A DNA stretch of 64,000 nucleotides, from the IMG/VR virus record IMGVR_UViG_3300038530_004289, positions 59,397 through 123,396 of that record. One strand, 5' to 3'. The notes under the pieces were generated by a model. It was not told the DNA's origin, did no database searches, and was given only the letters and a program-made list of their open reading frames with translations. Positions within the stretch are counted from its first letter, which is position 1. Each line of letters starts with the position of its first letter. Positions 3,141-54,166 of the stretch are shown piece after piece. Source of the DNA: a virus (taxonomy: Duplodnaviria; Caudoviricetes). The position numbers and the translations under genes are program-made.

Positions 3141-3479
3141 CTATCGGAGTTTTCTCTTTCCGAAATAGTAGGATGACACTCCAACGATTAGGAACATTCC
3201 CATGATTTTTGGATTATCCAAAGCGAATCTTAGTGAGTTCTCGAAAAAGGCAGTAGCCCTTGAAACGATTTCTTCAGTTGCAGATTGTGGTTCTGCTTCA
3301 AACGCAGACGGCTCGATGGTTTCAAGGTCTGCATCAACGGTAGTTTCGGGTTCAGGTTCCGCAGGAGGCTCATAGAATGGTGAAGCCTCTGCTGAGATAC
3401 CCAATTGTTGTGGGGTCAAATCGCCAAATCCAACAGGAACAGGCATGGGGGCATCCATATCCATCTGTGAATACATCAA
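3141..3479 (-). CDS. Small acidic tail-anchored protein
   Basis: C-terminal IMGMFLIVGVSSYYF followed by basic GKRKLR; internal SAFEAE. Confidence 0.7.
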   Translation of the reverse strand: MMYSQMDMDAPMPVPVGFGDLTPQQLGISAEASPFYEPPAEPEPETTVDADLETIEPSAFEAEPQSATEEIVSRATAFFENSLRFALDNPKIMGMFLIVGVSSYYFGKRKLR

Positions 3480-3715
3480 TAATCAACTCCTGCTTCTTTC
3501 AGATATGCGAAAGCAGAAATGCCACCGCAAGCGATAACGATTGGGCCAAGAGTCATGCCAACAATGTTTGACTCGCCTCGAATGATGTATGGAAGTGAGT
3601 GTGCAGTTTCCAAAACTCCGATTCCCATCATGGCAAGTGCAATTGTGTAGCCGACTTTGTGAATCATTTTGGTTTCAGTTTCGTAGTATTTCTTTGGTAT
3701 CGCTAATGGGTTCAT
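3476..3715 (-). CDS. Small two-TM membrane protein
   Basis: Two hydrophobic segments; tightly packed between neighbours. Confidence 0.7.
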   Translation of the reverse strand: MNPLAIPKKYYETETKMIHKVGYTIALAMMGIGVLETAHSLPYIIRGESNIVGMTLGPIVIACGGISAFAYLKEAGVDY

Positions 3716-3716
3716 G

Positions 3717-5594
3717 TTATTGTCCTCCTAATTTTTTTCCGATGGCGGTTCCTGCAATTACGGAACCTGCAAATACCATCAATTTGCCGATGGCTCCTAA
3801 TGGGTTCAGTTCTTCAAATGGTTGTGAGAAGGTATCAATGCCTTTAGCCTCAAAAGATTCTGCTTGTAAATCATAATCGTATTCCACCTTGACTGTCTCT
3901 TGAGTAATCTCTCCATCTAAATCATCTTCAACATCTATTTCAAACTCTGTATCTCCATATCCTGAATCTGAACCTCTCTCCACTTCTCTTTCAACTAATC
4001 CCTCCACCTCATCAAAAATTTCACCTCCATCTATGTCATCTTCATTTGGGTGTGGGTGAGGGTCGGTTTTCCAATTAATATCCACACCCACATACCTTTC
4101 CACTTGAATTTCATCGTAGCCTTCAGCCCCAAGCCTCACCATGAAATCTCCCCCATCATGGTTAATCGGGTCTTCAATAAAAGCCCTTAAGCGAGCCATA
4201 ACATCTTGTATTTGGTATCTTTCGGCTCTCAATCTTGTTTTTGTGTCTTGATTGTTGGTAGCCAAAATCTGTTTTCGGTTAGCCTCCAACAAACGATTTA
4301 GGGCTTGAAGTTTATCAATTGTGGCTTCAATAAATGAATCATCAACAGTTCTGAGGTTTCCTTGCCTATCGTATATCTCAGCCTCTAAATACTTGGAGTA
4401 GGGAGGCTTAAGAAACATCTCGCCCGCCCTTCCATAAACCATTTCATAAAAAAACTCCAAAGAATTGAGGGGCTTCTCATATTCCATAGAGTAGTCAAAA
4501 CTCTTTCCTTTGTAGTAGTTTTGAGTGGCATCCCGAACATCATTCAAAACAAAGTAGCCTTCTCCAACTTCTTCAAGAGCCTGTTTGTCATAAGTTCCAA
4601 CGAGGGAGTAGTGATAAACTTCAACACCGCCATCTTGACCTGCTAATTCAATTTCATAATCAACAGTCCCATTTCCCGAAACAACTTTCCCCAACTTCCT
4701 TAACTTATCAACATTCTTCAAAGGAATGCTTTGCTCTTTGAATAATCTATGCAACATTCCTTTTCCATCTTCAGCCCCAAATTCTTCAGCGTAATACTCT
4801 CGGTCAATAATTCCATATTGGTTCCCGATAGCATCCACAAACCTGAATCCATCGAGATTTAATTCGTATTCACCTTTCAGGTTTCGCAAAAAATCCAAAA
4901 ATGTTCTTTGATTGCGATTATCCATTCGTAAGTTATGGTTGTTGTCATAGTTTATCAAGCCGAAATTTTCATCACCATATCTTCTTTCTGCCCCAAACTC
5001 TTCAGCCCCCCTTCTATATTGAGTATCAGCATCATGTTTGTGAAGTAATTTTGTCAATAGATGCCCCACCTCCTGTCTTTGTCTGCTTGTGGAGTTATCA
5101 ATCAAATACAAATCTCTCACCGCAATAATCGGTTGAACTAAAACTTCATTTTTCAGCCCTCTAATTTTTTGCACGATGAATCCATCAACAAAATAATAGT
5201 CCTTACCACCTAATCTTCCCAAAAATACCGCCCCCCGATTTGGGTAGCCACCTTGATTCCCAAACCATTCGGGTTCATATCGGTATGCAATAGTTCCATT
5301 CTCATTGAACCTCGCTTCAAAGGTTTCATTTTCAGCAGACAAGAAACTCGGCATAGCCATGTGTGGATTAGGAGCATTATCCTGAAGCCATCTGTTCACA
5401 TCTTGATATAGCAATTCATGAACTTTTCCCATCTCTAATTGCCTTTGAATATGATAAGGTAATTCAAAAAAATCCTGTGCATTACCTCCTTTTTCAATGT
5501 AGTTTTCTAAAATCTTGATTTTTGGAGCAGGGATTCCCTTGTAGCCTTTGGCTTCAAATTCTTCTGCATCTCGACATCCACAAGTGTTGCACAT
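3717..5594 (-). CDS. Modular polyprotein-like protein with MCNTCGC leader, about seven AE linkers and C-terminal anchor
   Basis: MCNTCGCRDAEEFEA, SAENETFEA, GAEEFGAE, YAEEFGAE, LEAE, LGAE, QAESFEA; ends LMVFAGSVIAGTAIGKK. Confidence 0.8.
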   Translation of the reverse strand: MCNTCGCRDAEEFEAKGYKGIPAPKIKILENYIEKGGNAQDFFELPYHIQRQLEMGKVHELLYQDVNRWLQDNAPNPHMAMPSFLSAENETFEARFNENGTIAYRYEPEWFGNQGGYPNRGAVFLGRLGGKDYYFVDGFIVQKIRGLKNEVLVQPIIAVRDLYLIDNSTSRQRQEVGHLLTKLLHKHDADTQYRRGAEEFGAERRYGDENFGLINYDNNHNLRMDNRNQRTFLDFLRNLKGEYELNLDGFRFVDAIGNQYGIIDREYYAEEFGAEDGKGMLHRLFKEQSIPLKNVDKLRKLGKVVSGNGTVDYEIELAGQDGGVEVYHYSLVGTYDKQALEEVGEGYFVLNDVRDATQNYYKGKSFDYSMEYEKPLNSLEFFYEMVYGRAGEMFLKPPYSKYLEAEIYDRQGNLRTVDDSFIEATIDKLQALNRLLEANRKQILATNNQDTKTRLRAERYQIQDVMARLRAFIEDPINHDGGDFMVRLGAEGYDEIQVERYVGVDINWKTDPHPHPNEDDIDGGEIFDEVEGLVEREVERGSDSGYGDTEFEIDVEDDLDGEITQETVKVEYDYDLQAESFEAKGIDTFSQPFEELNPLGAIGKLMVFAGSVIAGTAIGKKLGGQ

Positions 5595-5600
5595 TTCTCA

Positions 5601-6299
5601 TCACTCTCGCTTTCTCATTTCACTTACAGTAAAGGCTCCAAACACCAATGCAAGGAAGCCCAACTGAGCGTATTTGAATCCCTTTGGAACTTCTATTTTT
5701 CTTCGGTATGCGGCAAGTCCGATTGGGGATGGAATCATACCCATTCTTTCATAGTGTCTTTTCATGCCTCTTCGAGCATAATCTCTTTTTGAGTCTCGCT
5801 TCATGCCTGTAAATTCTGAAGCAAGTTCTTCAGCATCTAATTCGGTATGCTCCCCGATTTCATCAACCACCATATCTTCAAAGTCCTCTTCGTCAGCAGG
5901 GAAAAAGCCCTCATTATTTGCACCTTCAAACCGAGTTGAAAGTCCTCTTAAATATCGCTTCGCACCATCGTATTTGATTTCAGCCTCAAAATCTTCAGCA
6001 TCTAATCCTCTGTGGAATCTTCGATTTACTTCCAAAAGTTGTGTTGGAGTCCATGTAAAAGATAATTTTGTGTAAATTGAACCTGACTGAACCGAAGTAT
6101 TCAGAATAAGTCTGATTCCTTGTTGGAATAAGTTTGTGTAGTTGCCTCTGCTACTGTAAAAGGAATCTTCCATTTCGGCATCTTTCATACATGATTCCAT
6201 GTCTAAGAAATATCCAAAAATAGTTTGCCTTGTCTCGTATGGATTTATTTCACCACCACTAAAAAATTCTTCTTTCAGTTCTTTCACATAGACAGTCAT
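5601..6299 (-). CDS. Two-module AE-linker protein with tail anchor
   Basis: DAEDFEAE mid-protein; C-terminal LGFLALVFGAFTV followed by RKRE. Confidence 0.75.
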   Translation of the reverse strand: MTVYVKELKEEFFSGGEINPYETRQTIFGYFLDMESCMKDAEMEDSFYSSRGNYTNLFQQGIRLILNTSVQSGSIYTKLSFTWTPTQLLEVNRRFHRGLDAEDFEAEIKYDGAKRYLRGLSTRFEGANNEGFFPADEEDFEDMVVDEIGEHTELDAEELASEFTGMKRDSKRDYARRGMKRHYERMGMIPSPIGLAAYRRKIEVPKGFKYAQLGFLALVFGAFTVSEMRKRE

Positions 6300-8473
6300 T
6301 ATTCATCACCCTTCCCTTTCATTCTCATCGCAGTTAATCCCACAAGGGCAACCGCCACAACACCTCCACCAATCGCAAGGTTTTTAGGTGAGAAACGAGA
6401 TTCCGTTTTTTCAGGAGGTTGTTCTGCATTTTCCTGCGGCTTAGGAGATGGAATAAATGGATTCGATGTGGAATAAGTCAAGTCCTCCCCACACACTTTT
6501 TCGGTTGGGTGCAAATCACTTCGGCATTCTTGCCAAGAAGCACAATCACCGTCATCTTCACAGATTGGTAAGCATTGACCATCAACGCAAACTTTCCCAT
6601 CAGGGCAATCATCATCATTGGTGCAAGTTTCAGGAGCCTTGAATGTTTCAGATTTCTTCAACAACCTTTCAGTCAGTTTGTATCCAAACACCGCAGAGAA
6701 AAGAAGAACTGCTACGCCTCCGTAAGCCATTACTTCTTTATCACTTGGCACATATTCATCGCCAATGTATTCACCTGCAAATTCATAATCCATCATGACA
6801 TCATCATCATCGTCAAATTCTTCTTGCATGGGGTCTTGAATAACGCCTAAGCCTACAAGCGATGATTCGTTCCATCCATCATCCCAACCTGAAAAGAACT
6901 GCAAGTATCGGCTTGAATTGTTTTCAATTTCCTGCATCAGTTCATCAGGAGTAATGTCGTAAGTAATCATGTATTCAGTATCAACGCCTGAGTAGTAGTC
7001 TTCTTTGGTTGAATCAGGCATCCACATGGTTTTAGCCGCATTTCGACCTTCGGCAAACGGAGTGGATTCAGCACCGAGAGTTTCGGCAAAGTAAGACCCT
7101 GAACTTTCAGAGTATTCAACAGCATCCACATCAAGTAAATCTGTATCAATGATTTGAGGTGATTTCAGTTCACCATAAGCATAAATGTCTCTCGTAGTTC
7201 CATCCTCGAATTCAACTTTTGTGGATGAAGCCGCTTCAATTTCGCTCAATTGTCGAACATAATTTTCAGGGTTTGATTCGACTTCCGATTTGATGTCTTC
7301 TTTGATTTCTTCTTTGGCTCTTTCTAAGTTTTCCAGATTTTTTGAATAGGGAACAATGTCCTCATCATCTATTTCCACAACATAATCTTGCAGAATTGTT
7401 TCTCTGTCGTATCTTTTGGTTGTCTTATCTCTCTCATATTCAATTGAACCTTTCATTTCAGACTCAAACTCTTCAGCCCCCATCATCCTCAATAAAACTT
7501 GATTTCGGATTCCTATTGGAATTGAATTTACTCTTCTTTCATATTCTCTCATGGTGCTTTCAGCCATGTGCAAGCGATATTGAACTTCATCACTAATTGA
7601 TTTTAAGTCGTTGTATTGTGTGTTGTAAATGTTAAGATAATCATTAGTTTGAAAGTCAAATTCCCCCTCATTCAACCTTCTTTCCATTTCAGTTCTGTTT
7701 CTTAAGGCCATTTCTAATGGTGATGCAATCCGACTTTCTATTCTTTTCAAACCTTTGATTTGTCTTATACTATCTTGAAGCAAAGCATGATAATAGATGA
7801 ACTCTTCAATTTGTTCTTTAACATCCGTTTCAGAATCAAAAGTAATTTTTTGACCTCTTGAGTTGGTGTAGTCGTTCAGCATTACATCTTCCATACTACC
7901 TTGATATACTATGTTGTAAGGTCTGAAGAAAGGTTCATCCATAGGGTTCCCGAAATCATCATAGTGGTGATGTCGAAGTGTAACGAATACCTTGTCTCCT
8001 GCATTTGTGATGTTCACTACTTTCCCTTCATATTCATCAGCATTTTCAGCCCCAAACTCTTCAGCATCAAAAATCAAATATCCATCTTCAAAATCTCCGT
8101 TATCGTAGGCTTTTTTGAGGAATTTCAATGCCTCCATTTGTGTATTGAAGCCATAACTCATTGACCTATTGTATTGTTTCATAGGATTCCTAAGCATTCC
8201 ATAGTCAAAACTTGCTTCAGTAAATTTCCACCCTTCTTTCCAATTCCACCCTTCCATGTCATGCCTTTTTTCATAAGGAATGATTTGTGTTTCATACATA
8301 AGGACTACAAATGCTCCGTCTTTGAGAGTTTCATCGGTAATTCGGTAAGTATATTTGTCTAATTTTTTAACATCAAAACCTTCAATAATTTTTGTTGAAC
8401 CCTTCCTCATGCCCCGAAAAGCATCTTCGGCTTCAAATCCTTCAGCCCCCTTACATCCACAAGTATTGCACAT
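6299..8473 (-). CDS. Modular polyprotein-like protein with MCNTCGC leader, AE linkers, TM, Cys-rich repeat and C-terminal anchor
   Basis: MCNTCGCKGAEGFEAE, DAEEFGAE, GAEEFESE, FAETLGAE; TM VMAYGGVAVLLFSAVFGY; CTNDDDCPDGKVCVDGQC; ends IGGGVVAVALVGLTAMRMKGK. Confidence 0.8.
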   Translation of the reverse strand: MCNTCGCKGAEGFEAEDAFRGMRKGSTKIIEGFDVKKLDKYTYRITDETLKDGAFVVLMYETQIIPYEKRHDMEGWNWKEGWKFTEASFDYGMLRNPMKQYNRSMSYGFNTQMEALKFLKKAYDNGDFEDGYLIFDAEEFGAENADEYEGKVVNITNAGDKVFVTLRHHHYDDFGNPMDEPFFRPYNIVYQGSMEDVMLNDYTNSRGQKITFDSETDVKEQIEEFIYYHALLQDSIRQIKGLKRIESRIASPLEMALRNRTEMERRLNEGEFDFQTNDYLNIYNTQYNDLKSISDEVQYRLHMAESTMREYERRVNSIPIGIRNQVLLRMMGAEEFESEMKGSIEYERDKTTKRYDRETILQDYVVEIDDEDIVPYSKNLENLERAKEEIKEDIKSEVESNPENYVRQLSEIEAASSTKVEFEDGTTRDIYAYGELKSPQIIDTDLLDVDAVEYSESSGSYFAETLGAESTPFAEGRNAAKTMWMPDSTKEDYYSGVDTEYMITYDITPDELMQEIENNSSRYLQFFSGWDDGWNESSLVGLGVIQDPMQEEFDDDDDVMMDYEFAGEYIGDEYVPSDKEVMAYGGVAVLLFSAVFGYKLTERLLKKSETFKAPETCTNDDDCPDGKVCVDGQCLPICEDDGDCASWQECRSDLHPTEKVCGEDLTYSTSNPFIPSPKPQENAEQPPEKTESRFSPKNLAIGGGVVAVALVGLTAMRMKGKGDE

Positions 8474-10999: not shown

Positions 11000-12301
11000 T
11001 CATACCCTCCGACCAATAGACCTGAGAATTGTGTAAAGACCACCTGAAATCAAACTTACTGCGGCTATCATCTTGAATCCTGAATTCGATTTAGAAGTTG
11101 AGATTTTCCGTTGAGGAACAATTGATTCAAAGACCGATTCCTCTTCTGCAAACGAAGGCATATCATATTTCTTAGGAACATACTCAAATACATCGCCAAC
11201 TCTTGAATCTCCACCCATCGTTTCATGTGAGTAAGAGTCATCATTTTGGAATGCACCGTAATCATCCAATCCATCATCAAATCCACTAATTTCTCTTGTT
11301 AATCCATAATCTGAACTGCTGAATGGTTGTGTATCATATTGCACAACAGGAGCATCCATTGAAAATTTGCTTTTCACTTCAATGTTGGACCCTTTGTGTT
11401 CGGTTCTTCTTGGAGTGTCAATTTTTCCTACAACCACATATCCTTCATCTTTGAAGAATTCAGGAGAATACACAACTGCCTCACCCGGAGATGAATAAGT
11501 AATTCCCGAAAGAATCTTTTTGATGTTGTCTTTATCAGTTCCAAATGAAAGTTGCTCTTTGAGGGCATCAAGGTCTTTTGTGTTGATGATGTTGTGAACG
11601 ATATAAACCGATGCTTGGCTGAGTGCTTCTTTATTGACTGCGGCAGGTCTTTGGCTGATAAGTGCCACACCATATCCTGATGCCCTTCCCAACTTACACA
11701 ACCTTACGATAGAGGCGAAGGAGTTTGGTCTGCCGACTTGGGGAACGAAATCTTGAACTTCTTCAAAAAGGGTCATCAACCCTCTGCCACCCATATCGGT
11801 TTCAAGCAAAGCCTCGCAATAATCTGATATCATTTCTTGTTGGGTTTGAAGTGGAACTTGCGAAAGGTTGATAATCAATGACTTTCTCGAAGCCTTCAAT
11901 TTCTCAATCAATTTTCTCATATTGACTGATTCACCGACCTTTGGCTCGATTCTTTCCACACCCATCAGGTCATTCAAGTGGCCGTGAGCATCAAGAGCAT
12001 CAAAGCAAACAAACTGAAGACCAAGCCTTTCAAACTCTTCCATCAAAACTGCGGCAGTATAGGACTTACCTGAACCTCTTTTCCCACTTATGAACATAAC
12101 TTGATACAAGATTTTCAATGGAAAATTAATCCTTTTCCCTAATGAAACATTTTCATTCTTATCCACTTCAGGAACGGGGCTTGAGCCACCCGCATTAAGA
12201 ATCTCTTCCAATTCGGGACCGCCTGTTTGAACGCCCCAATCGTTCTCACCATCTGAGTCCATAACTTCAGTTTGGGGGTTTTGAATGTTAAATCTTCTCA
12301 T
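11000..12301 (-). CDS. HerA/FtsK-superfamily (DUF87-like) P-loop ATPase with C-terminal membrane anchor
   Basis: Walker A GKRGSGKS, Walker B LFEEVQDF, Arg finger LGRASG, ISQRP motif; ends MIAAVSLISGGLYTILRSIGRRV. Confidence 0.85.
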   Translation of the reverse strand: MRRFNIQNPQTEVMDSDGENDWGVQTGGPELEEILNAGGSSPVPEVDKNENVSLGKRINFPLKILYQVMFISGKRGSGKSYTAAVLMEEFERLGLQFVCFDALDAHGHLNDLMGVERIEPKVGESVNMRKLIEKLKASRKSLIINLSQVPLQTQQEMISDYCEALLETDMGGRGLMTLFEEVQDFVPQVGRPNSFASIVRLCKLGRASGYGVALISQRPAAVNKEALSQASVYIVHNIINTKDLDALKEQLSFGTDKDNIKKILSGITYSSPGEAVVYSPEFFKDEGYVVVGKIDTPRRTEHKGSNIEVKSKFSMDAPVVQYDTQPFSSSDYGLTREISGFDDGLDDYGAFQNDDSYSHETMGGDSRVGDVFEYVPKKYDMPSFAEEESVFESIVPQRKISTSKSNSGFKMIAAVSLISGGLYTILRSIGRRV

Positions 12302-13649: not shown

Positions 13650-13853
13650 TTAAGCCTTGTGCAAAGTATAGTCCTTGATTCCACCTGCAAGAAGGTTACT
13701 TCCGATGTTAATCAAAAGAACTCCTGAGATAACACCAACTGCATACCTCAATCCTTCATCGCTTCGACTAATGAAAATCTTGTTCAGGTGGTAGGCCGAT
13801 AAAGTGATTCCCGTTCCAACCATGATTAAGCCGATGAGGGTGGAATTAATCAA
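13650..13853 (-). CDS. Small two-TM membrane protein
   Basis: Two hydrophobic helices; start overlaps the upstream stop. Confidence 0.65.
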   Translation of the reverse strand: MINSTLIGLIMVGTGITLSAYHLNKIFISRSDEGLRYAVGVISGVLLINIGSNLLAGGIKDYTLHKA

Positions 13854-14485
13854 TACTTCACCCCGTTCATGCTATTGTAATGTTGCATCATCTGTTGTTC
13901 AAAAGTCATGGGGTTGCTTAATTGCTCAGTCTTCTTTTCAACTTTCTTAATTGCTTCTTCTGCATCCCTTACAGTATTCTTCAGAGCATTAATTTCTTCA
14001 TTCAACTTGTCAATTTTTTGTTTGTTGATGAGATAGACCACAACACCGCCCGTCAATGCACCTACCATGAAAGTAGTAATTTTTCCGCCAATCGGAAAAC
14101 CTGCGGAAGCAAGAACTTCATCAGACCCTTTGTTTAATCTCTTCTGCAACTCATCAAGTAATGGCGTGATTTCCTCATCTTCGGCTCTTTGTTCCAATGC
14201 TCCAAGCAATTGACCATCAGAAAGTTTCTGCACATTGACTTCAGCCGAAACGGATACAGTATCCTCTGCACTAAACACTTGCATAGGAGGCTCAATGACT
14301 ACTTCAGAGAGTTTCTTAAATCCTCTGATACCCTTGCCTCGAACACAAAGGAGGTATTTTCCTTCACCGTAAATCCGAGCAAAGTTGTGAAAGTCATCAT
14401 CATTCATCGGAAGTTCTGAAGACCAAATATCGGTTGTCCCGCTATTCTTGGTTCCCTTCAAAAACCGCCTAACGAAATACACCAT
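13850..14485 (-). CDS. Single-TM coiled-coil protein
   Basis: Start MVYF at 14485, 29 nt from TTAAGTATC (14506-14514); TM ITTFMVGALTGGVVVYLI followed by heptad repeats; FSAED. Confidence 0.7.
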   Translation of the reverse strand: MVYFVRRFLKGTKNSGTTDIWSSELPMNDDDFHNFARIYGEGKYLLCVRGKGIRGFKKLSEVVIEPPMQVFSAEDTVSVSAEVNVQKLSDGQLLGALEQRAEDEEITPLLDELQKRLNKGSDEVLASAGFPIGGKITTFMVGALTGGVVVYLINKQKIDKLNEEINALKNTVRDAEEAIKKVEKKTEQLSNPMTFEQQMMQHYNSMNGVKY

Positions 14486-14523
14486 ACCTATCAAGCCACA
14501 CATCAGATACTTAAAGTTTGCTC

Positions 14524-14943
14524 CTAAACCCAAATCTTTGAAAGTTGCTCATAAAGTTCATCAGTTTGTTCTGCCTCTTGTTCTGAAATCAACTCCATAG
14601 TTTTAACGATGTGTTGCTTCTTCAAATCTCTCATCCTTTCATAGAAGTCTCGGCCTTTAGCCCGTTCTTCAAACCCTTTTTGGTGCAAGTATTCTTCAAA
14701 TGTAAGTAAATTCAGTCTCCACCTAATCCCTGCCCTTCGGTCAGAACTTTGGCGATGTTGAAACATCGGTCTGTTTCTCAATATGCCTACAACCTCTCGA
14801 CTTGTATATCGTCTTGGATTGGCATCAACAATGTGGTATGAAATTTCATTGGAAAAAGCATAACCATCCTTAGTCAAAAGATAGTCCACAATGTCAAAAA
14901 CAAGGGCTTCAGTTAGGGGGAAGCCTGAATTACTCTTCTTCAT
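14524..14943 (-). CDS. Putative winged-helix DNA-binding protein
   Basis: DIVDYLL...FSNEISYHI...TSREVVGILR pattern; start MKKS at 14943. Confidence 0.5.
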   Translation of the reverse strand: MKKSNSGFPLTEALVFDIVDYLLTKDGYAFSNEISYHIVDANPRRYTSREVVGILRNRPMFQHRQSSDRRAGIRWRLNLLTFEEYLHQKGFEERAKGRDFYERMRDLKKQHIVKTMELISEQEAEQTDELYEQLSKIWV

Positions 14944-15796: not shown

Positions 15797-15943
15797 TCAT
15801 TTAAGGTTTTCACCCCTCTTGTGATGCTCCACAAGCAACAGAGTTAGTTTCTTATTTCTGTCTAAAACCCACCAAACGAAGAAAACCTGAAGAATACCAT
15901 TGAATGCCAAATATAGCAAGAGCAGAAAAAACATCCACTCCAT
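15797..15943 (-). CDS. 48-aa single-TM microprotein (not in ORF track)
   Basis: MEWMFFLLLLYLAFNGILQVFFVWWVLDRNKK...; starts 2 nt after the Get3-like stop. Confidence 0.55.
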   Translation of the reverse strand: MEWMFFLLLLYLAFNGILQVFFVWWVLDRNKKLTLLLVEHHKRGENLK

Positions 15944-15945
15944 AA

Positions 15946-17124
15946 TCAGACCTCAAAAGAATAAGTTGCTCCTGTTGCAGTTTTCTGCTTCCTCTTAACT
16001 TTCATGACTTTCAATTCAGGGAACCTATCAAAAATGGGCTTCTTCAAACAACCATCAACGATGTAGCCGTCTTCAAATAGTTCCACCTTATCCGAATATG
16101 GGAACTGAAGTTTCAACTTCATTTGCTCCCCATCTGATTCTGAAAGTTCGGTGGCAAATTCAGGGCTAAAGTCAAAATTATCTCCTGAGAATAGAATCTT
16201 GGCAAACTCACCCAACTTCTCAGCCTTTGGCTCAAACGGCAATCGGGATACACCAACCAATGAAATATCCTCACCACTCGTTAGGTTCCTATATTGAGCG
16301 ATGTAAGGTTGTTGTAAATCGTATTCCATCTTGAGCAACGCTACTGCCTTGTTGCGTTTGGCATCTTTCCATGTTTCTTCTCCGAAGTTTGGAATTAGGC
16401 CATTCACAATGATGTTTGAAACTTGGAATCCTTGAGCCTTCAAGAATTGAACAGTTCTTCTTGACTCTTGATATGCCGCCTCAGTTGGAATCGAAACAAG
16501 ATTGATGGAAACGAATTCTTGATTTCGGAGCAACTTCTTGATATTTTCAAGTTTGGATGTCATGTCTTCAACGATATCTGCAATCTTTGATGTATCGCTT
16601 GGCTTCAACAAGAACGATTTCATTCTTTCAATCTTAGCCTTCATTCTTAAGATTCTCAACAAAAATCCATTCATGGCTTCGGGAGTGGTGAGTGCCTTCA
16701 GAGTATGTCCTGTGGGTGCAGTATCAAAAACTACTACATCGTAATCTATTCCTTGAGTCAATGATTGAATTTCCTCAAGGGCAAAAACTTCATCCATGCC
16801 GGGGAAATTCGCCCAATCACTCAACATCTCAGAATCAAAAACAGGTATTGCTTTTGAAAATGAATTACTCATCGCATCTTGAAGTTCTGTGAAGAATGCC
16901 CTTGCCTGTTGTTGCGAATTCAAATTCTTCGCCCATAAATTTTCTTTGATAGGTGTAGGTGTGAATCCGACCTCAACTCCAAGAACATCTTGCGTGGAGT
17001 GTGCAGGGTCGCTTGAAACCAAAATAGTTCGATATCCTTGATTTGAATAATGTAAAGCGACTGCCGCAGAAGTTGTTGATTTTCCTACGCCACCCTTGCC
17101 TGTAAGCATTACAAGTTTAGCCAT
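15946..17124 (-). CDS. ArsA/Get3 (TRC40)-family ATPase, single ATPase domain, probable C-terminal HSP20-like extension
   Basis: GKGGVGKST, SDPAHS, PGMDE, DTAPTGHT; only one Cys in the protein; start 17124 is 29 nt from TTAAATACC. Confidence 0.9.
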   Translation of the reverse strand: MAKLVMLTGKGGVGKSTTSAAVALHYSNQGYRTILVSSDPAHSTQDVLGVEVGFTPTPIKENLWAKNLNSQQQARAFFTELQDAMSNSFSKAIPVFDSEMLSDWANFPGMDEVFALEEIQSLTQGIDYDVVVFDTAPTGHTLKALTTPEAMNGFLLRILRMKAKIERMKSFLLKPSDTSKIADIVEDMTSKLENIKKLLRNQEFVSINLVSIPTEAAYQESRRTVQFLKAQGFQVSNIIVNGLIPNFGEETWKDAKRNKAVALLKMEYDLQQPYIAQYRNLTSGEDISLVGVSRLPFEPKAEKLGEFAKILFSGDNFDFSPEFATELSESDGEQMKLKLQFPYSDKVELFEDGYIVDGCLKKPIFDRFPELKVMKVKRKQKTATGATYSFEV

Positions 17125-17173
17125 ACTGCCGATAACGCCAAACAGGTATTTAACGGTTTCCTTGAATTTCAAA

Positions 17174-18241: not shown

Positions 18242-18814
18242 TCAAGAATTTTTCTTACTCAAGAGATAAGTTCCTACAAGGGCGACCCCAATAGCCGAAA
18301 CTTGAACAACAGGTTTTGAAGCAGTCCTCACCAAACCACTCATAAATCCTGTGCTTTGCATTGGCTTATTTGCTTCAACGGAATCAGTCATACTACTTAC
18401 ACTCACATCACTTTCAGCGAGTTCAGCAGGTGGAGGTTCTTGTCGCAAACCAAAGATGTTTTCCCACCACCCACCTACATAGGTTTGTTGCTTTCGATAA
18501 GCCTCAGCACCCGGCATGACATAATTCATGTAATAAAAATCCTGTGGGTCTGCTCCTGTGGAGGGTGTGAAATTCAAATAGCCAAACGGAATGCTACCTC
18601 CTTTGTATGGTTGAAATTGAGTTCCATCTTGGTTGAGTGTGAAAATTTGAGGCTCCCATGCCGCACCTGCCGCAGTAGTTGGAGATTTGGTAACAGGATT
18701 GTCATTGTCATCGTAGCCAATAATTTCATTCCGATTCCCTGAAGAATCAATGATGTAGCAAGTTCTTGTGAATAAACTGCCGGGGTCGCATTCCATGTTG
18801 TATCCCGTAGTCAT
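18242..18814 (-). CDS. Tail-anchored hypothetical protein
   Basis: Start MTTGYN 29 nt from TTAACAATC; ends VSAIGVALVGTYLLSKKNS. Confidence 0.7.
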   Translation of the reverse strand: MTTGYNMECDPGSLFTRTCYIIDSSGNRNEIIGYDDNDNPVTKSPTTAAGAAWEPQIFTLNQDGTQFQPYKGGSIPFGYLNFTPSTGADPQDFYYMNYVMPGAEAYRKQQTYVGGWWENIFGLRQEPPPAELAESDVSVSSMTDSVEANKPMQSTGFMSGLVRTASKPVVQVSAIGVALVGTYLLSKKNS

Positions 18815-18851
18815 ACCAACAGTAGTGTGCTTTTGATTGTTAAAGATTCGC

Positions 18852-19250
18852 CTAAACCACTTGATTGAACATAAACATCGCATGGTGGCTCAAAGGTGCA
18901 TCCATGTTCATCGCATCTCGGATTGAAACCCACCTGTAATCATCATGTTCCTCAGAAAGGATTACTTCATCATCACCTTCAACGATAGCCATAAACCCAT
19001 GATATACCTTTTTCATATCCGAGTCAATGTGCGGTTCGAGTGTTTTGATGATTTTCACATTTAGACCTGATTCTTCGTAGGTTTCTTTGATTGCAGTTTG
19101 AACCATAGTTTCATCACCATCGGGTTTCCCACCCGGCAATTCATACATTCCGTGATTAGAAGTTTCATGAATAGACCTCCTTAGAAGGAGAATTTTATCT
19201 CCATTCATCACAAGACATCCTGCCGCATTTCGATATCCAAAGATGTTCAT
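18852..19250 (-). CDS. Nudix hydrolase (MutT-like)
   Basis: Nudix box GGKPDGDETMVQTAIKETYEESGL; SEEHDDYRW. Confidence 0.9.
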   Translation of the reverse strand: MNIFGYRNAAGCLVMNGDKILLLRRSIHETSNHGMYELPGGKPDGDETMVQTAIKETYEESGLNVKIIKTLEPHIDSDMKKVYHGFMAIVEGDDEVILSEEHDDYRWVSIRDAMNMDAPLSHHAMFMFNQVV

Positions 19251-26141: not shown

Positions 26142-26813
26142 TCATCTGTTTCGATAAATCCATGCACTCGCCAAAGCCACTATCCCTCCAATTATAGGGA
26201 TTCGGAATGGTTTCTTTGATTTGTTTTCCTTTGATGGTTGAGGTTTTTGTATGGTTTTCCAATCATCACCTAAGACTCTATTTGCACCTTTTATGATTCT
26301 TTGAAGTGCTTGATTTTGGTTTTTTGCATAAGGGTATAAATCAAAATAGGGTGCTTTATCCTTTCCTTCAAGGTCTATCCTATCTCCCCCATAGATTATA
26401 TCATCAACCTTGAATGAATATCTCCATCCCCTGTTGCCTTTTGTGTCATTCCAAACCTTCTCAATTGTTGCATTGATGTAGGTATTTTCATCAAAGTTTG
26501 AATATCCATAGATGTAAATGAAACAATCCCACCTTCTATCGTTTGAGGTAATCCCATAGTCAGGAAAATCCGATTGAAGTTCTTTCCGAAAATAGATTGT
26601 ATCATCAACCAATGAAACTCTCCCTATGTTTCTAATTGGTCCGTATGAGTTATCGGGGTTTTCATCACTAATCCAATACTCATTAAGTTCAATCGGAATA
26701 GTTTTTTTCTTTCCCACTTTAGGAAAATGTCCCCTCATATCAAGGTATGCCTTTTTTCTAATCTCCGTTTTTCCTTCGGGATTAAATGTGTGTCGGTATT
26801 CCATTATGCTCAC
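26142..26813 (-). CDS. Tail-anchored hypothetical protein
   Basis: Ends IPIIGGIVALASAWIYRNR. Confidence 0.7.
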   Translation of the reverse strand: MSIMEYRHTFNPEGKTEIRKKAYLDMRGHFPKVGKKKTIPIELNEYWISDENPDNSYGPIRNIGRVSLVDDTIYFRKELQSDFPDYGITSNDRRWDCFIYIYGYSNFDENTYINATIEKVWNDTKGNRGWRYSFKVDDIIYGGDRIDLEGKDKAPYFDLYPYAKNQNQALQRIIKGANRVLGDDWKTIQKPQPSKENKSKKPFRIPIIGGIVALASAWIYRNR

Positions 26814-50979: not shown

Positions 50980-51591
50980 TCACCCCATCACAAACTTAAG
51001 TGCAACTATTCCTACGCCTCCAAGCGCAATCAAACCCCAAGGCAATTCTGACAAATCTTCACTCACATTGTCTGCAAGAGTCTTAGATTCACAAGAACCA
51101 TCATCAACTTCAGCATCAGGATTGTAATTCTTCGCTTCTGAATCTGTGCAACCTGCAAGCGGATATTCACAAGAACCATCATCAACTTCAGCATCAGGAT
51201 TGTAATTCTTGGCTTCGGAATCTGTGCATCCCTCTTTATTGTCGGCAGGGGAAAGAGATTCAAATTCCAATCCTTGCCCCGCCCGTATCTTGCTTGCTAC
51301 TGAATGGGTGATGTTTCCAACCTGTGTTTCGAGGGTTGAGTTTTTCACTTGGTCGGCATCTTTTTTGCCTGTGTCGGCATAATCATCCATTCCGTAAGCC
51401 TTGTAGTGATATGTTTGAGTCGCTTCAACCCACTTTGCCTTAACTACTCCCATGACGGGGTTATCTTTCTCAATATCAAAGTCCGTTGCATCAAATAACC
51501 TAAACTCACTTCGATAGGAAACAGATTTTGATGAGGGCATGATTCCCACCCGCTTATCACTCCAACTTTGATTTCCAAACATCGTAATCAA
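50980..51591 (-). CDS. FGN-leader family tail-anchored protein with two GCTD..DDGSC repeats
   Basis: MFGNQSWSDKRVGIMPSSKSVSYRSEFR leader; ends PWGLIALGGVGIVALKF. Confidence 0.8.
   Translation of the reverse strand: MITMFGNQSWSDKRVGIMPSSKSVSYRSEFRLFDATDFDIEKDNPVMGVVKAKWVEATQTYHYKAYGMDDYADTGKKDADQVKNSTLETQVGNITHSVASKIRAGQGLEFESLSPADNKEGCTDSEAKNYNPDAEVDDGSCEYPLAGCTDSEAKNYNPDAEVDDGSCESKTLADNVSEDLSELPWGLIALGGVGIVALKFVMG
51087..51230 (-). repeat. Two tandem GCTDSEAKNYNPDAEVDDGSC coding repeats (two more at about 51742-51889)
   Basis: Near-identical DNA units of about 66 nt in both paralogues. Confidence 0.9.
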
Positions 51592-51633
51592 CTATGGATA
51601 TTTCGCTTCGATACTTAAAAGTATCTGTGAAGT

Positions 51634-52269
51634 TCAAGCCTGTAAGAACTTAAATCCAACCAAAGCAACTACACCAAGACCTACAAGACCCCAAGGGATT
51701 TCTGCCAAGTCCTCACGCACATTGTCTGCAAGAGTCTTATATTCACAAGAACCATCATCAACTTCAGCATCAGGATTGTAATTCTTCGCTTCTGAATCTG
51801 TGCAACCTGCAAGCGGAGGATATTCACAAGAGCCATCGTTTGCATTTGCATCAGGATTGTAATTCTTCGCTTCTGAATCGGTGCAACCTCCAACAAGAGG
51901 CTCAGGAGGATTTCTATTGTTTATTTCTAAAGCACCATTTCTTACGGCCTCAGTTGCATCTTTGTTCCAAAAACTTTCAATTACAAAGGTTTTCGAGTTG
52001 CTTCTTTCTCCACTTTCTGCATCAGAAATAGCCTGTGAGAGGGTGTTTGCGCCTCTGCCTGTCAAGCCTCCTGTTGGGTCTGCATACAAAACATGATACC
52101 TTTCTTGATTAGCGTAAGCACCGCCTGTCGAAATGAAGACATTGATTTTGTTTGGTTCATCAGGAGAATTGAATACTCTGAATTCACTTCGATAAGAAAC
52201 AGATTTTGTCGAGGGTATGATTCCTACTCGCTTATCACTCCAACTATGATTTCCAAACATCGTAATCAA
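51634..52269 (-). CDS. FGN-leader family tail-anchored protein with two GCTD repeats
   Basis: MFGNHSWSDKRVGIIPSTKSVSYRSEFR leader; ends PWGLVGLGVVALVGFKF. Confidence 0.8.
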   Translation of the reverse strand: MITMFGNHSWSDKRVGIIPSTKSVSYRSEFRVFNSPDEPNKINVFISTGGAYANQERYHVLYADPTGGLTGRGANTLSQAISDAESGERSNSKTFVIESFWNKDATEAVRNGALEINNRNPPEPLVGGCTDSEAKNYNPDANANDGSCEYPPLAGCTDSEAKNYNPDAEVDDGSCEYKTLADNVREDLAEIPWGLVGLGVVALVGFKFLQA

Positions 52270-52315
52270 CTATGGATGTTTCGCTTAGATACTTAAAGAT
52301 GCCTCTTTACTTGAA

Positions 52316-52945
52316 TCAATTTCGACCCATCAACATCTTAACTCCAACTAATGCAAAGATTCCTACTACTCCAAGAGTGATGTATTGAGGGTCTATGAGG
52401 GGAGCCTCATTTCCTGCTCCATTTCCATTTCCATTTCCATTTCCATTTCCATTTCCATTTCCATTTCCATTTCCATCTCCATCTCCATCTCCATTTCCAT
52501 TTCCATTTCCATTTCCATTTCCATTTCCATTTCCATTGAGATTTCCATCATCAGAACTATCTCCATTTATGGTTCCATTACCAATTCCTGAGTTCTCTCT
52601 GCCTTCAGTTGTCGGTTCTTGTTGATTGGCTTCAGCCCTCTCATAGGAGGCTCTGCCTCTTCCTGCGGTGCTTCCTGTGGCTCGCAAATCATCCCACGCT
52701 TGATAAATATCCGCAGTTGTTAAACCGCATTGATTCATGCGCTGAAGGTGTAAATCTATGAATTCACTTGCATCAATATCTCCAATAGACCACCACAAAT
52801 TTGAACAAGGCCCACTCCACCCCGAAACATTATACCTTGGCTCATCTTCGTTTCTGAATTCTGTCCTATAAACCACAGATTTCGATTGAGGCATGATTCC
52901 AATTAGTGAATTACTCCAATTTTGGTTGCCAAAGATATGAATCAC
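52316..52945 (-). CDS. FGN-leader family tail-anchored protein with (NG)n stalk
   Basis: IFGNQNWSNSLIGIMPQSKSVVYRTEFR leader; ends YITLGVVGIFALVGVKML. Confidence 0.8.
   Translation of the reverse strand: MIHIFGNQNWSNSLIGIMPQSKSVVYRTEFRNEDEPRYNVSGWSGPCSNLWWSIGDIDASEFIDLHLQRMNQCGLTTADIYQAWDDLRATGSTAGRGRASYERAEANQQEPTTEGRENSGIGNGTINGDSSDDGNLNGNGNGNGNGNGNGNGDGDGDGNGNGNGNGNGNGNGNGNGAGNEAPLIDPQYITLGVVGIFALVGVKMLMGRN
52418..52537 (-). repeat. (AATGGA)n microsatellite, 20 units, encoding NG/DG
   Basis: 17 perfect AATGGA units plus 3 GATGGA units. Confidence 0.95.
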
Positions 52946-53047
52946 CTAACTCATTAATCAGAAATTCTGAGTGTTAAAGGTGTCGTTTCGGAGATTGTGA
53001 TTTCACCCTATTTAAGGATTATGCAAGATACAAGGTTTTTTCATGAA

Positions 53048-53677
53048 TTATTCAGATGTAACTGAACTTTTTTGCGGCTCATCTTTCTTATTGGATTTCA
53101 AAGCGTCAGAAATTTTATCTGCAACGCCCAATCGGTCTGCAACGACAAAGGCTACATATCCTAAAATTCCGACTCCAACCACCTTAGCCCCCTTCGTAAA
53201 TGAATCTTTGAACCATTCAGGTAATGCAAATTCAACCGTTCCTCCACTAATTTGAGTTTTTGCTTCAGGTTCAGGTTCCGCTTCAGGTTCAGTTTGTTCA
53301 ACTTCGCCATTAGCAGTTGAATCATTATCAGTTTGAATCGGCTCAGAAACAGGTTCTTCGATTACAGGGTCTTGTGCAGAATTTCCTGAATCATCAGTAG
53401 GTTCACCAATCGGCTCCCCCAAATCGGGCATTTCAGGAAGTTGGGGTTTCAAATCAGGCAACCCCATAAGTCCATCAACCTTTATTCTCCCTTGTCCCTG
53501 TTCAATGATTTTTAAGCGACCTGTGTTTGCTTTGGCAGGAGGTTCAATTTTAGAGCGATGAACATCCTTTGGAAGTTTGGCATTCGCTAAATCAATACGG
53601 AAATCAGGTTTCTTTGAGCCGTAGGGCATCGTATCATTAGCGTCAAAAAACATTCCAAAAGTTTGATTGCCATACAT
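53048..53677 (-). CDS. Pro/Glu-rich membrane-anchored protein, divergent YGNQ leader
   Basis: MYGNQTF...TMPYGSK; TM VVGVGILGYVAFVVA near the C-terminus. Confidence 0.7.
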   Translation of the reverse strand: MYGNQTFGMFFDANDTMPYGSKKPDFRIDLANAKLPKDVHRSKIEPPAKANTGRLKIIEQGQGRIKVDGLMGLPDLKPQLPEMPDLGEPIGEPTDDSGNSAQDPVIEEPVSEPIQTDNDSTANGEVEQTEPEAEPEPEAKTQISGGTVEFALPEWFKDSFTKGAKVVGVGILGYVAFVVADRLGVADKISDALKSNKKDEPQKSSVTSE

Positions 53678-53686
53678 TTAATTCAC

Positions 53687-54166
53687 CTAACCTAACATTG
53701 AAACTGCTACCACTCCAATCAATCCTAAAATTCCATAAGAAATTATTTTTGAGTCTATTTGAGTTGGTTGTTGAGGACAATTATTGTAATCAACACAATA
53801 AGCATTACCTGTTTCAGGATTGATACCATAAGGATTTACGACTGATAGATAACTTGGGTCATCGCCCCCAATGATTCCCGCACCTTCCGAGCCATCGCCT
53901 CCATTTCCATTTCCACCATCAAGTTCCTGCTCCTTTTGGTCTTGTTGCTCTTGTGTTTGGATGTCAGGGTCATGTGGATTAGCATCAGAGATGTCAGGAG
54001 TTCCATCGCCATCCAAATCAGGTTGTTGGTCTTCAGGAACAAATTCGCAACAATCAGGGTGCATAGAAACGCCATAATCCTCAGGACAAGGGCATGGGCG
54101 AATTGGCCCATGAACCTCATTTGATTCAAAAAGATGCCCATAATTGAAAACATCAACACCAATCAT
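53687..54166 (-). CDS. Tail-anchored Cys-containing protein with DLDGDG motif
   Basis: Ends IISYGILGLIGVVAVSMLG; TTAAGTATC 30 nt upstream (54188-54196). Confidence 0.75.
   Translation of the reverse strand: MIGVDVFNYGHLFESNEVHGPIRPCPCPEDYGVSMHPDCCEFVPEDQQPDLDGDGTPDISDANPHDPDIQTQEQQDQKEQELDGGNGNGGDGSEGAGIIGGDDPSYLSVVNPYGINPETGNAYCVDYNNCPQQPTQIDSKIISYGILGLIGVVAVSMLG

What the first reader, a model, noticed from the sequence alone, without database searches (positions are those of the whole stretch)
15946..17124. Element-encoded Get3/ArsA-like ATPase alongside about a dozen tail-anchored proteins
Seen: a single-domain ArsA/Get3 ATPase with only one Cys (no ArsA metalloid-binding Cys set), a Met/Leu-rich helical insert and a ~70-aa beta-rich C-terminal extension; no arsB/acr3/arsC/arsD/arsR in the window. 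Proteins with a C-terminal TM and no N-terminal signal are ORFs 3141, 3717, 5601, 6299, 11000, 18242, 26142, 50980, 51634, 52316, 53048 and 53687. Known: Get3/TRC40 delivers tail-anchored proteins to membranes, and archaeal homologues bind TA substrates. Inference: the element carries its own TA-protein targeting factor for building its membrane. It sits under a class B promoter, while most putative clients lie in class A units.
Basis: partly seen in the sequence, partly recalled or inferred. Interest (0 to 1): 0.82.

Follow-up and report, generated by a model that had tools for sequence, protein, structure and literature searches.

The report
Virus-encoded Get3 chaperone with tiny membrane partner
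A large uncultured marine virus-like element with archaeal-type genes carries its own Get3-type ATPase, the enzyme cells use to mount tail-anchored proteins in membranes, beside a conserved 48-residue membrane protein and many tail-anchored proteins; no binding or insertion has been shown.

Summary
ORF 15946-17124(-) is a 392-aa single-domain Get3/ArsA-family ATPase with intact catalytic motifs. It has a Get3-length client-binding insert and one non-conserved Cys, and lacks the CXXC zinc motif. Its 76-aa C-terminal beta domain folds like the alpha-crystallin domain of Get3d. The nearest structures are archaeal Get3, not ArsA, and the 123-kb element has no ArsB, Acr3 or ArsD.

The protein belongs to a well-supported clade. 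Its members that could be placed lie on large marine viral or metagenomic contigs (relatives 160-166 kb with inverted terminal repeats). No member was found in 151 Poseidoniales genomes.

Tail-anchored-like proteins make up 12% of the element's ORFs and 5-7% in two relatives, against 0.9% in cellular control loci. One is a conserved HerA/FtsK-type packaging ATPase.

A 48-aa single-pass membrane ORF (15797-15943) starts 2 nt after the Get3 stop. It is conserved directly downstream of Get3 in 10 of 13 loci.

Best reading (about 0.55): a virus-borne tail-anchor targeting module. Binding, membrane delivery and the role of the small partner are inferred, not shown. This scan already reported the same family on three other genomes. 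No publication on it was found in the searchable library.

The parts
15946..17124 (-). Get3-family ATPase gene (392 aa): ATPase core plus client-binding helices (residues 1-316, nt 16177-17124) and an alpha-crystallin-like domain (residues 317-392, nt 15949-16176)
   Evidence: Pfam and NCBIfam. PDB sequence search. AF2 model pLDDT 85.9. Foldseek top hits are archaeal Get3 3zq6/3ug6, E about 3e-22. The C-terminal domain alone matches the Get3d alpha-crystallin domain of 3igf at Z 7.1.
17146..17154 (-). TATA-like box GTTAAATAC about 29 nt upstream of the ATG; putative archaeal-type promoter of a leaderless transcript
   Evidence: Sequence read and exact match. The motif class is not statistically enriched, so its function is inferred.
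15797..15943 (-). 48-aa single-pass membrane ORF whose ATG lies 2 nt after the Get3 stop; conserved partner with motif (Y/F)FVxWxLWRxN after the TM segment
   Evidence: homologues lie directly downstream of Get3 (overlapping it, or within 70 nt) in L086, L087, L124, L126-L131, and about 2 kb downstream in L084. Alignment A4 has invariant F22 V23 W25 L27 R29 N30. At least 124 clusters in metagenomes, no Pfam domain, and longest-contig lengths shared with Get3 clusters.
11000..12301 (-). HerA/FtsK-type P-loop ATPase (putative genome-packaging ATPase) with a C-terminal TM anchor; conserved candidate client
   Evidence: Pfam DUF87/HerA 3.8e-5. phrog_2666 'terminase large subunit' 1.4e-18. Homologues at 55-61% identity in G003 and G004 are also TA-like.
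3141..8473 (-). Four consecutive proteins with C-terminal hydrophobic anchors (3141-3479 weak; 3717-5594; 5601-6299; 6299-8473 with an extra internal segment)
   Evidence: Hydropathy scans; translation. No Pfam or PHROG match for 3717 and 6299.
18242..18883 (-). 213-aa TA-like protein two genes upstream of Get3
   Evidence: Its homologues in G003 and G004 are not TA-like by the same test.
26142..26813 (-). 223-aa TA-like protein
50980..54166 (-). Tandem array of five small proteins with C-terminal anchors (50980, 51634, 52316, 53048 borderline, 53687); three are preceded by the TTAAGTATC box

Best explanation
The gene encodes a catalytically competent Get3-family ATPase of a virus-associated clade. 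It has a Get3-type core with a TRC40-like insert, no zinc CXXC motif and a C-terminal alpha-crystallin-like domain.

It forms a conserved, often translationally coupled two-gene module with a 42-64 aa single-pass membrane protein.

The proposed function has three steps. During infection the ATPase, presumably as a dimer, captures the C-terminal transmembrane segments of the element's unusually many signal-less tail-anchored proteins. It then delivers them post-translationally to a membrane. The small membrane protein serves there as a docking site, or is itself an obligate client. The clients include a conserved HerA/FtsK-type packaging ATPase.

Shown: family and fold, motif conservation, clade separation from cellular homologues, TA enrichment, and gene linkage. 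Inferred: client binding, membrane delivery, dimerisation, the role of the small protein, and which membrane is targeted.
For: Family and fold. The nearest solved structures are the archaeal TA-binding Get3s and yeast Get3 bound to TA helices.

Motifs: P-loop, DPAHS, DTAPTGHT and the LPFEP A-loop region are invariant across 19-39 clade members. The client-binding region has Get3 length and is far longer than in ArsA.

Phylogeny: the clade has SH-aLRT 99 support and includes the IMG/VR viral contigs. It is separate from Poseidoniales, canonical archaeal and bacterial clades and from true ArsA. Hits in 151 Poseidoniales genomes reach at most 37% identity.

Context: the position is syntenic in relatives. 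TA-like ORFs are 12%, 5.2% and 7.4% in three elements against 0.9% in controls. The TA-anchored packaging-type ATPase is conserved. The mini-TM partner is conserved.

Background: Get3d, with the same alpha-crystallin architecture and no CXXC, binds TA proteins (PMC10248533, read).
Against: There is no experimental or structural test of client binding. The hydrophobic groove could not be inspected in the model.

Farkas et al. (PMC6593721) caution that a TRC40 insert does not by itself predict TA targeting.

The TA predictor is a crude hydropathy scan. The control loci are flanks of cellular Get3 genes, not matched viruses. No related virus lacking Get3 was available, so co-variation is untested.

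Most TA proteins are not orthologous between relatives.

The element encodes no Get1/EMC3-family insertase. No membrane-containing virion has been demonstrated, and the host is unidentified (PolD is equidistant from five archaea).
Confidence: 0.55

Rival explanations
1. It is a general ATP-regulated holdase chaperone. The alpha-crystallin domain and Get3 core protect aggregation-prone viral proteins in the cytosol, as Get3 does under stress and as magrovirus chaperonins are proposed to do. There is no dedicated membrane-targeting role.
For: The C-terminal domain has the sHSP/CS fold. Get3 holdase activity and the unclear role of the Get3d alpha-crystallin domain are documented (PMC6593721, PMC10248533). 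Other marine archaeal viruses carry chaperonins (PMC5434244).
Against: Variants lacking the alpha-crystallin domain (316 aa; L128-L131) still keep the membrane partner. The tight linkage to a membrane protein and the TA excess are not explained by a purely cytosolic holdase.
Confidence: 0.2
2. It is a membrane-tethered SIMIBI-class organiser. The ATPase is recruited to the membrane by the small TM protein. It positions or assembles a viral machine, for example the packaging vertex or a replication or egress site, in a ParA/MinD-like way rather than chaperoning TM helices.
For: The P-loop core is shared with MinD/ParA/NifH (weak Pfam hits). The gene pair with a membrane protein is conserved. 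A TA-anchored packaging-type ATPase is present.
Against: The best sequence and structure matches are specifically Get3, with the Get3-only helical subdomain retained. No MinE/ParB-like partner was recognised.
Confidence: 0.12
3. It is a host-takeover factor. The viral Get3 competes with, or poisons, the host Get3 pathway or its unknown receptor. This redirects membrane-protein biogenesis towards viral proteins or blocks host TA proteins.
For: Poseidoniales and other archaea have their own Get3-alpha-crystallin homologue with the same domain plan. The viral copy is highly diverged, at about 34% identity.
Against: Catalytic motifs are fully conserved, which argues for an active enzyme rather than a decoy. 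The host is not established.
Confidence: 0.08
4. It is an ArsA-type arsenite/antimonite pump ATPase that confers metalloid resistance.
For: Automatic source annotations call relatives 'arsenite-transporting ATPase'.
Against: It is single-domain. TIGR04291 scores 107 bits against a 650 cutoff. There is no metalloid-binding Cys triad. ArsB, Acr3 and ArsD were not found in the element. True ArsA halves fall on a separate, distant branch.
Confidence: 0.02

Closest known systems
Archaeal Get3/TRC40 (M. thermautotrophicus 3ZQ6; M. jannaschii 3UG6/3UG7)
   Same: Best structural and single-domain sequence matches (Foldseek E about 3e-22; phmmer 7e-39 and 5e-36). Same P-loop, DPAHS, DTAPTGHT and A-loop region, and a long helical client-binding subdomain.
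   Different: No CXXC zinc motif; a clade-specific Trp-containing insertion of about 11 aa occupies its place. The insert is about 5-8 aa shorter. There is an added alpha-crystallin-like domain. It is virus-encoded, forms a separate clade, and is paired with a tiny membrane protein.
Get3d (Arabidopsis At1g26090, PDB 8ELF; Nostoc All4481, 3IGF/8EGK; Barlow et al. 2023, PMC10248533)
   Same: Get3 core plus C-terminal alpha-crystallin domain. The top structural match of the C-terminal domain is the 3igf alpha-crystallin domain (Z 7.1, 64 aa, rmsd 2.4 A). There is no CXXC motif.
   Different: Catalytic motifs are canonical rather than degenerate, and the A-loop region is present. Sequence similarity to 8elf and 3igf is weak and N-terminal only (1e-10, 1e-5). 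It does not group with the one cyanobacterial (Gloeobacterales) homologue in the tree, whose Get3d identity was not checked. There is no link to photosynthesis.
Cellular Get3/ArsA-HSP20 homologues of Poseidoniales and other archaea and bacteria (Pfam PF02374 + PF17886)
   Same: Same domain plan and similar length (387 aa in a Poseidoniales single-cell genome). Same insert length and no CXXC.
   Different: Only 30-37% identity, confined to the ATPase part. The C-terminal domains share no detectable sequence similarity. They form separate, well-supported clades.
E. coli/Klebsiella plasmid ArsA (arsRDABC operon)
   Same: Same P-loop superfamily and signature motifs.
   Different: ArsA is a tandem two-domain protein with a Cys triad, a short groove region and arsD/arsB neighbours. 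None of these is present here.

Membership tests
Get3/ArsA family (PF02374, TIGR00345) | HMM score above curated cutoffs | tested here: met
   PF02374 212.7 bits (cutoff 24.3); TIGR00345 198.4 bits (cutoff 135)
Get3/ArsA family (PF02374, TIGR00345) | Deviant Walker A GKGGVGK(T/S), switch I DPAH(S/N), switch II DTAPTGHT | tested here: met
   All present, and invariant in 19- and 39-sequence alignments
Get3/ArsA family (PF02374, TIGR00345) | Get3/ArsA fold | tested here: met
   AF2 pLDDT 85.9 and pTM 0.86; Foldseek probability 1.0 to many Get3 structures
Canonical TA-targeting Get3/TRC40 | Extended helical client-binding subdomain with TRC40-type insert | tested here: met
   Region after switch II is 59 aa, against 62-67 aa in CXXC-type archaeal Get3 and 32-45 aa in ArsA halves. 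Insert core is 23 aa against 26-31 and 11
Canonical TA-targeting Get3/TRC40 | CXXC zinc-binding dimerisation motif | tested here: not met
   The aligned position reads EETW...NKAVALLK; the only Cys is at residue 359. Some functional Get3s, such as AtGet3a, also lack it (PMC10248533)
Canonical TA-targeting Get3/TRC40 | Hydrophobic groove in the closed dimer | tested here: inconclusive
   Only a monomer model without accessible coordinates. Hydrophobic fraction of 0.41-0.43 and 7 Met in the two helical regions are similar to archaeal Get3
Canonical TA-targeting Get3/TRC40 | Binds TA transmembrane helices and delivers them to a membrane receptor | not testable with these tools
   Requires biochemistry
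Canonical TA-targeting Get3/TRC40 | Get1/EMC3-family insertase partner encoded alongside | tested here: not met
   PF01956 was not found in the 123-kb record, while the positive controls matched. A host factor or the 48-aa partner may substitute
ArsA arsenite-pump ATPase | Tandem duplicated ATPase domains | tested here: not met
   Single domain; TIGR04291 scores 107 bits against a 650 cutoff
ArsA arsenite-pump ATPase | Metalloid-binding cysteine triad | tested here: not met
   No Cys in the regions aligned to the ArsA Cys positions
ArsA arsenite-pump ATPase | Genomic association with arsB/acr3/arsD | tested here: not met
   PF02040, PF01758 and PF06953 were not found in the record
Get3d | C-terminal alpha-crystallin domain | tested here: met
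   Z 7.1 to the 3igf alpha-crystallin domain and 6.3 to 8elf. The remaining top rows are almost all sHSP or CS domains. Foldseek was weak (E 0.2), and Pfam PF17886 was not detected by sequence
Get3d | Degenerate switch I and missing A-loop; membership of the cyanobacterial/plant clade | tested here: not met
   Canonical motifs are present. It does not group with the one cyanobacterial (Gloeobacterales) homologue included in the tree, whose Get3d identity was not checked. Similarity to 8elf and 3igf is weak and N-terminal only

The most novel reading that the evidence does not exclude
The Get3 gene and the translationally coupled 42-64 aa membrane protein together form a self-contained minimal tail-anchor insertion system. 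The tiny protein's conserved Trp/Arg-rich juxtamembrane tail would be the membrane receptor for the ATPase, a functional analogue of Get1/Get2. This would be the first identified receptor for any prokaryotic-type Get3, and it would be carried by a virus to build its own membrane-anchored machinery, including its packaging ATPase.
Probability: 0.2. Interest if true: 0.85.

Novelty: new variant of a known kind. Interest (0 to 1): 0.66.

Why it matters
Get3 homologues are widespread in archaea and bacteria, but their clients and, above all, their membrane receptors are unknown.

This system offers three things: a compact virus-borne Get3; a conserved, co-translated tiny membrane partner; and a defined set of abundant candidate clients on the same genome. 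Together they give a directly testable, minimal system for how prokaryotic-type Get3 works.

It also adds post-translational membrane-protein targeting to the list of cellular functions that large viruses carry themselves. A tail-anchored packaging-type ATPase hints that this uncharacterised group of about 160-kb marine elements assembles on, or contains, a membrane.

No paper describing a virus-encoded Get3 was found in the searchable library. This absence is limited to that library.

Tried and rejected
- **Single-protein locus searches** found nothing in the genome or viral collections. Alignment-based searches were needed.
Whether any of them is cellular remains open.
- **Host assignment by PolD failed.** No close relatives were found, and identity to five archaeal genomes was similar, at 42-51%.
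- **Magrovirus identity rejected.** Magroviruses use PolB and an HK97 capsid module, and the paper does not mention Get3 or ArsA. This element has PolD and no detected head-tail genes.
- **No capsid, portal or envelope protein was recognised**, so 'its membrane' is unproven.
- **The C-terminal domain was not detected by sequence.** Pfam found no HSP20 or ArsA_HSP20 domain in it, and Foldseek gave only E 0.2. Only the exhaustive structural aligner gave a consistent answer.
- **The 'class B promoter' is not statistically distinct**.
- **ArsA reading rejected**; see the membership test.

Full report
**What is at the coordinates**

The minus-strand ORF 15946-17172 has a TTG start. The ATG at 17124 gives a 392-aa protein, P0001. 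A TATA-like GTTAAATAC box lies about 29 nt upstream of that ATG, immediately after the stop of the preceding pentapeptide-repeat gene. This fits an archaeal leaderless transcript.

P0001 matches Pfam ArsA_ATPase at 9.2e-63 and NCBIfam TIGR00345 (TRC40/GET3/ArsA) at 198 bits, against a cutoff of 135. It scores far below the equivalog cutoff for true ArsA, at 107 bits against 650.

Among solved structures, the best single-domain sequence matches are the archaeal Get3 proteins of M. thermautotrophicus (7e-39) and M. jannaschii (5e-36). The tandem chloroplast ARSA1 scores higher only because it matches twice.

**Structure**

An AlphaFold2 model built on 39 homologues is confident (mean pLDDT 85.9, pTM 0.86). 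Foldseek ranks archaeal Get3 first (3zq6 and 3ug6, E about 3e-22). Diatom, yeast and Giardia Get3 follow, including complexes with tail-anchor helices. ArsA appears only at rank 48 and beyond.

The last 76 residues were modelled alone (pLDDT 80). They form a six-strand beta-sandwich. In an exhaustive comparison with 48,161 chains, the best match is the alpha-crystallin domain of the Nostoc Get3d protein 3igf (Z 7.1, 64 residues, rmsd 2.4 A). Almost all further rows at Z 5 or above are small-heat-shock or CS domains, and they include Arabidopsis Get3d 8elf at Z 6.3. These Z values are moderate and Foldseek alone was weak. The consistency of the list, and the fact that the top hit is the same domain in another Get3 homologue, make the assignment reasonable.

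**Sequence features**

The P-loop, DPAHS, DTAPTGHT and the LPFEP A-loop region are invariant across the clade.

The helical region after switch II is 59 aa. This compares with 62-67 aa in CXXC-type archaeal Get3 and only 32-45 aa in the two halves of a plasmid ArsA. The insert core is 23 aa, against 26-31 and 11.

The CXXC zinc motif is absent. A clade-specific insertion with an invariant Trp takes its place. The single Cys (residue 359) lies in the C-terminal domain and is not conserved.

ArsB, Acr3/SBF and ArsD profiles find nothing in the whole 123,396-bp record, while control genomes match.

**Who carries it**

The record is a single 123-kb virus record. It encodes the PolD large subunit, an MCM-like helicase, RNR, a GluRS-like protein and three tRNA-Arg genes. 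No head-tail hallmark genes were detected.

Hundreds of proteins of 384-392 aa share 48-76% identity over the full length, many on contigs of 60-190 kb.

Four IMG/VR contigs of 84-166 kb carry a 52-55% identical copy in a syntenic neighbourhood. Two of them have inverted terminal repeats.

In GTDB representative genomes the best matches reach only 28-35% identity. In 151 Poseidoniales genomes the best reaches 37%.

A maximum-likelihood tree of 104 sequences puts the query with the viral contigs in a clade of 21 rows (SH-aLRT 99). This clade is separate from three others: the Poseidoniales clade, CXXC-type archaeal Get3, and the large bacterial ArsA-HSP20 clade. The true ArsA halves lie on a separate, distant branch. 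The order of these clades is unresolved, so the donor lineage is unknown.

A Poseidoniales single-cell genome has its own 387-aa Get3 with a C-terminal HSP20-like tail. It is 34% identical to the viral protein, and only in the ATPase part.

**Tail-anchored proteins**

A uniform, crude test was applied to all ORFs of at least 80 aa. It required exactly one hydrophobic segment, ending within 15 residues of the C-terminus.

| Source | TA-like ORFs | Fraction |
|---|---|---|
| This element | 16 of 132 | 12% |
| Relative G003 | 10 of 192 | 5.2% |
| Relative G004 | 13 of 176 | 7.4% |
| Cellular control loci | 8 of 913 | 0.9% |
| Archaeal subset of controls | 3 of 174 | 1.7% |

Fisher p values against the cellular controls are 5e-10, 2e-4 and 2e-6.

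The N-termini shown lack hydrophobic signal-like segments. The anchors are Gly/Ala-rich and mostly end in a short basic tail.

Most of these proteins have no known domains. ORF 11000-12301 is an exception. It is a HerA/FtsK-type ATPase matching a PHROG annotated as a packaging enzyme. Its 55-61% identical homologues in both relatives keep the C-terminal anchor.

**A conserved partner**

A 48-aa ORF (15797-15943) begins 2 nt after the Get3 stop. It has one N-terminal TM segment followed by a conserved (Y/F)FVxWxLWRxN motif and an amphipathic tail.

Across the 13 loci with some downstream flank (L132 has none), homologues were placed as follows:
- In 10 loci, including this window, the homologue lies directly after Get3, overlapping its stop or within 70 nt. 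Four of these are variants whose Get3 lacks the alpha-crystallin domain.
- In L084 and its near-identical duplicate L085 it lies about 2 kb downstream, among three TA genes.
- In two loci it was not found; one of them has only a short flank.

A profile search finds at least 124 clusters, all without a Pfam domain. Source names are 'hypothetical protein' or absent, apart from three evidently spurious labels. Several report the same longest-contig length as Get3 clusters (144,829; 45,585; 17,431; 14,098; 12,016), which suggests they lie on the same contigs.

An earlier report of this scan on another genome had mentioned such a partner. I re-derived it here independently.

**Interpretation**

The enzyme is a Get3-type and not an ArsA-type protein. 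It looks catalytically active and is maintained as a core, syntenic gene of a group of large marine elements.

Three observations favour a virus-borne tail-anchor targeting function: the gene pair with a tiny membrane protein, the five- to thirteen-fold excess of signal-less tail-anchored proteins, and a conserved tail-anchored packaging-type ATPase.

None of this demonstrates binding or insertion. Farkas et al. warn that the insert alone does not predict TA targeting. The TA predictor and the controls are rough. No Get3-lacking relative was available for a co-variation test. The host and the virion type are unknown.

Alternatives remain open: a general holdase, a membrane-tethered organiser, or a host-pathway competitor.

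**Novelty**

No paper in the searchable library describes a virus-encoded Get3. The same scan has, however, already reported this family on three other genomes with similar conclusions.

Noticed in passing
window 11000-12301 (-): HerA/FtsK-type P-loop ATPase (phrog_2666 'terminase large subunit' 1.4e-18; Pfam DUF87) with a C-terminal TM anchor that is conserved in two relatives. A membrane-anchored packaging ATPase would suggest a virion with a membrane.
   Followed up: partly
L002:4759-8223 (+) = genome 24759-28223: Full-length archaeal DNA polymerase D large subunit (DP2; three Pfam domains, down to 4e-124) on a virus record. It is 42-51% identical to five diverse archaea, with no close cellular relative. 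An MCM-like protein (L001:14049-15725) and a helicase lie nearby.
   Followed up: partly
window 92, 3130, 10982, 14506, 23161, 23434, 34981, 45485, 51610, 52288, 54188: TTAAGTATC occurs 11 times against 0.5 expected, each about 20-30 nt upstream of a start codon. It precedes TA genes but also RNR and the GluRS-like gene, so it does not mark a purely structural programme.
   Followed up: partly
L128, L129, L130, L131 (metagenome loci); P0189: A sub-branch of the viral clade has 316-317 aa Get3 proteins without the alpha-crystallin domain but with the tiny membrane partner retained. P0189 (309 aa) is the sister of the whole clade and also lacks the domain.
   Followed up: partly
window 19338-21038 (-): Secreted (N-terminal signal-like) 566-aa protein with thrombospondin-type-3-like Asp-rich calcium-binding repeats and a long GQ repeat. 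About 157 aa are 73-79% identical in all IMG/VR relatives, upstream of Get3.
   Followed up: no
window 13850-14533 (-): Conserved neighbour with a TM segment followed by a coiled coil. Weak PHROG match to Rz-like spanin (5e-6). Syntenic in relatives.
   Followed up: no
L084:11187-11648: In one relative, a 153-aa ORF that looks by eye like a dCMP/cytidine deaminase (Cys-rich zinc-binding pattern; not searched against any library), together with three TA genes, is inserted between Get3 and the tiny membrane ORF.
   Followed up: no
G003 and G004 (IMG/VR 3300046163_000066, 3300025132_000021): Relatives are 166 and 160 kb with inverted terminal repeats according to IMG/VR. The window's own record is labelled 'provirus' and 61% complete, which probably reflects weak classification of a novel group.
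   Followed up: no
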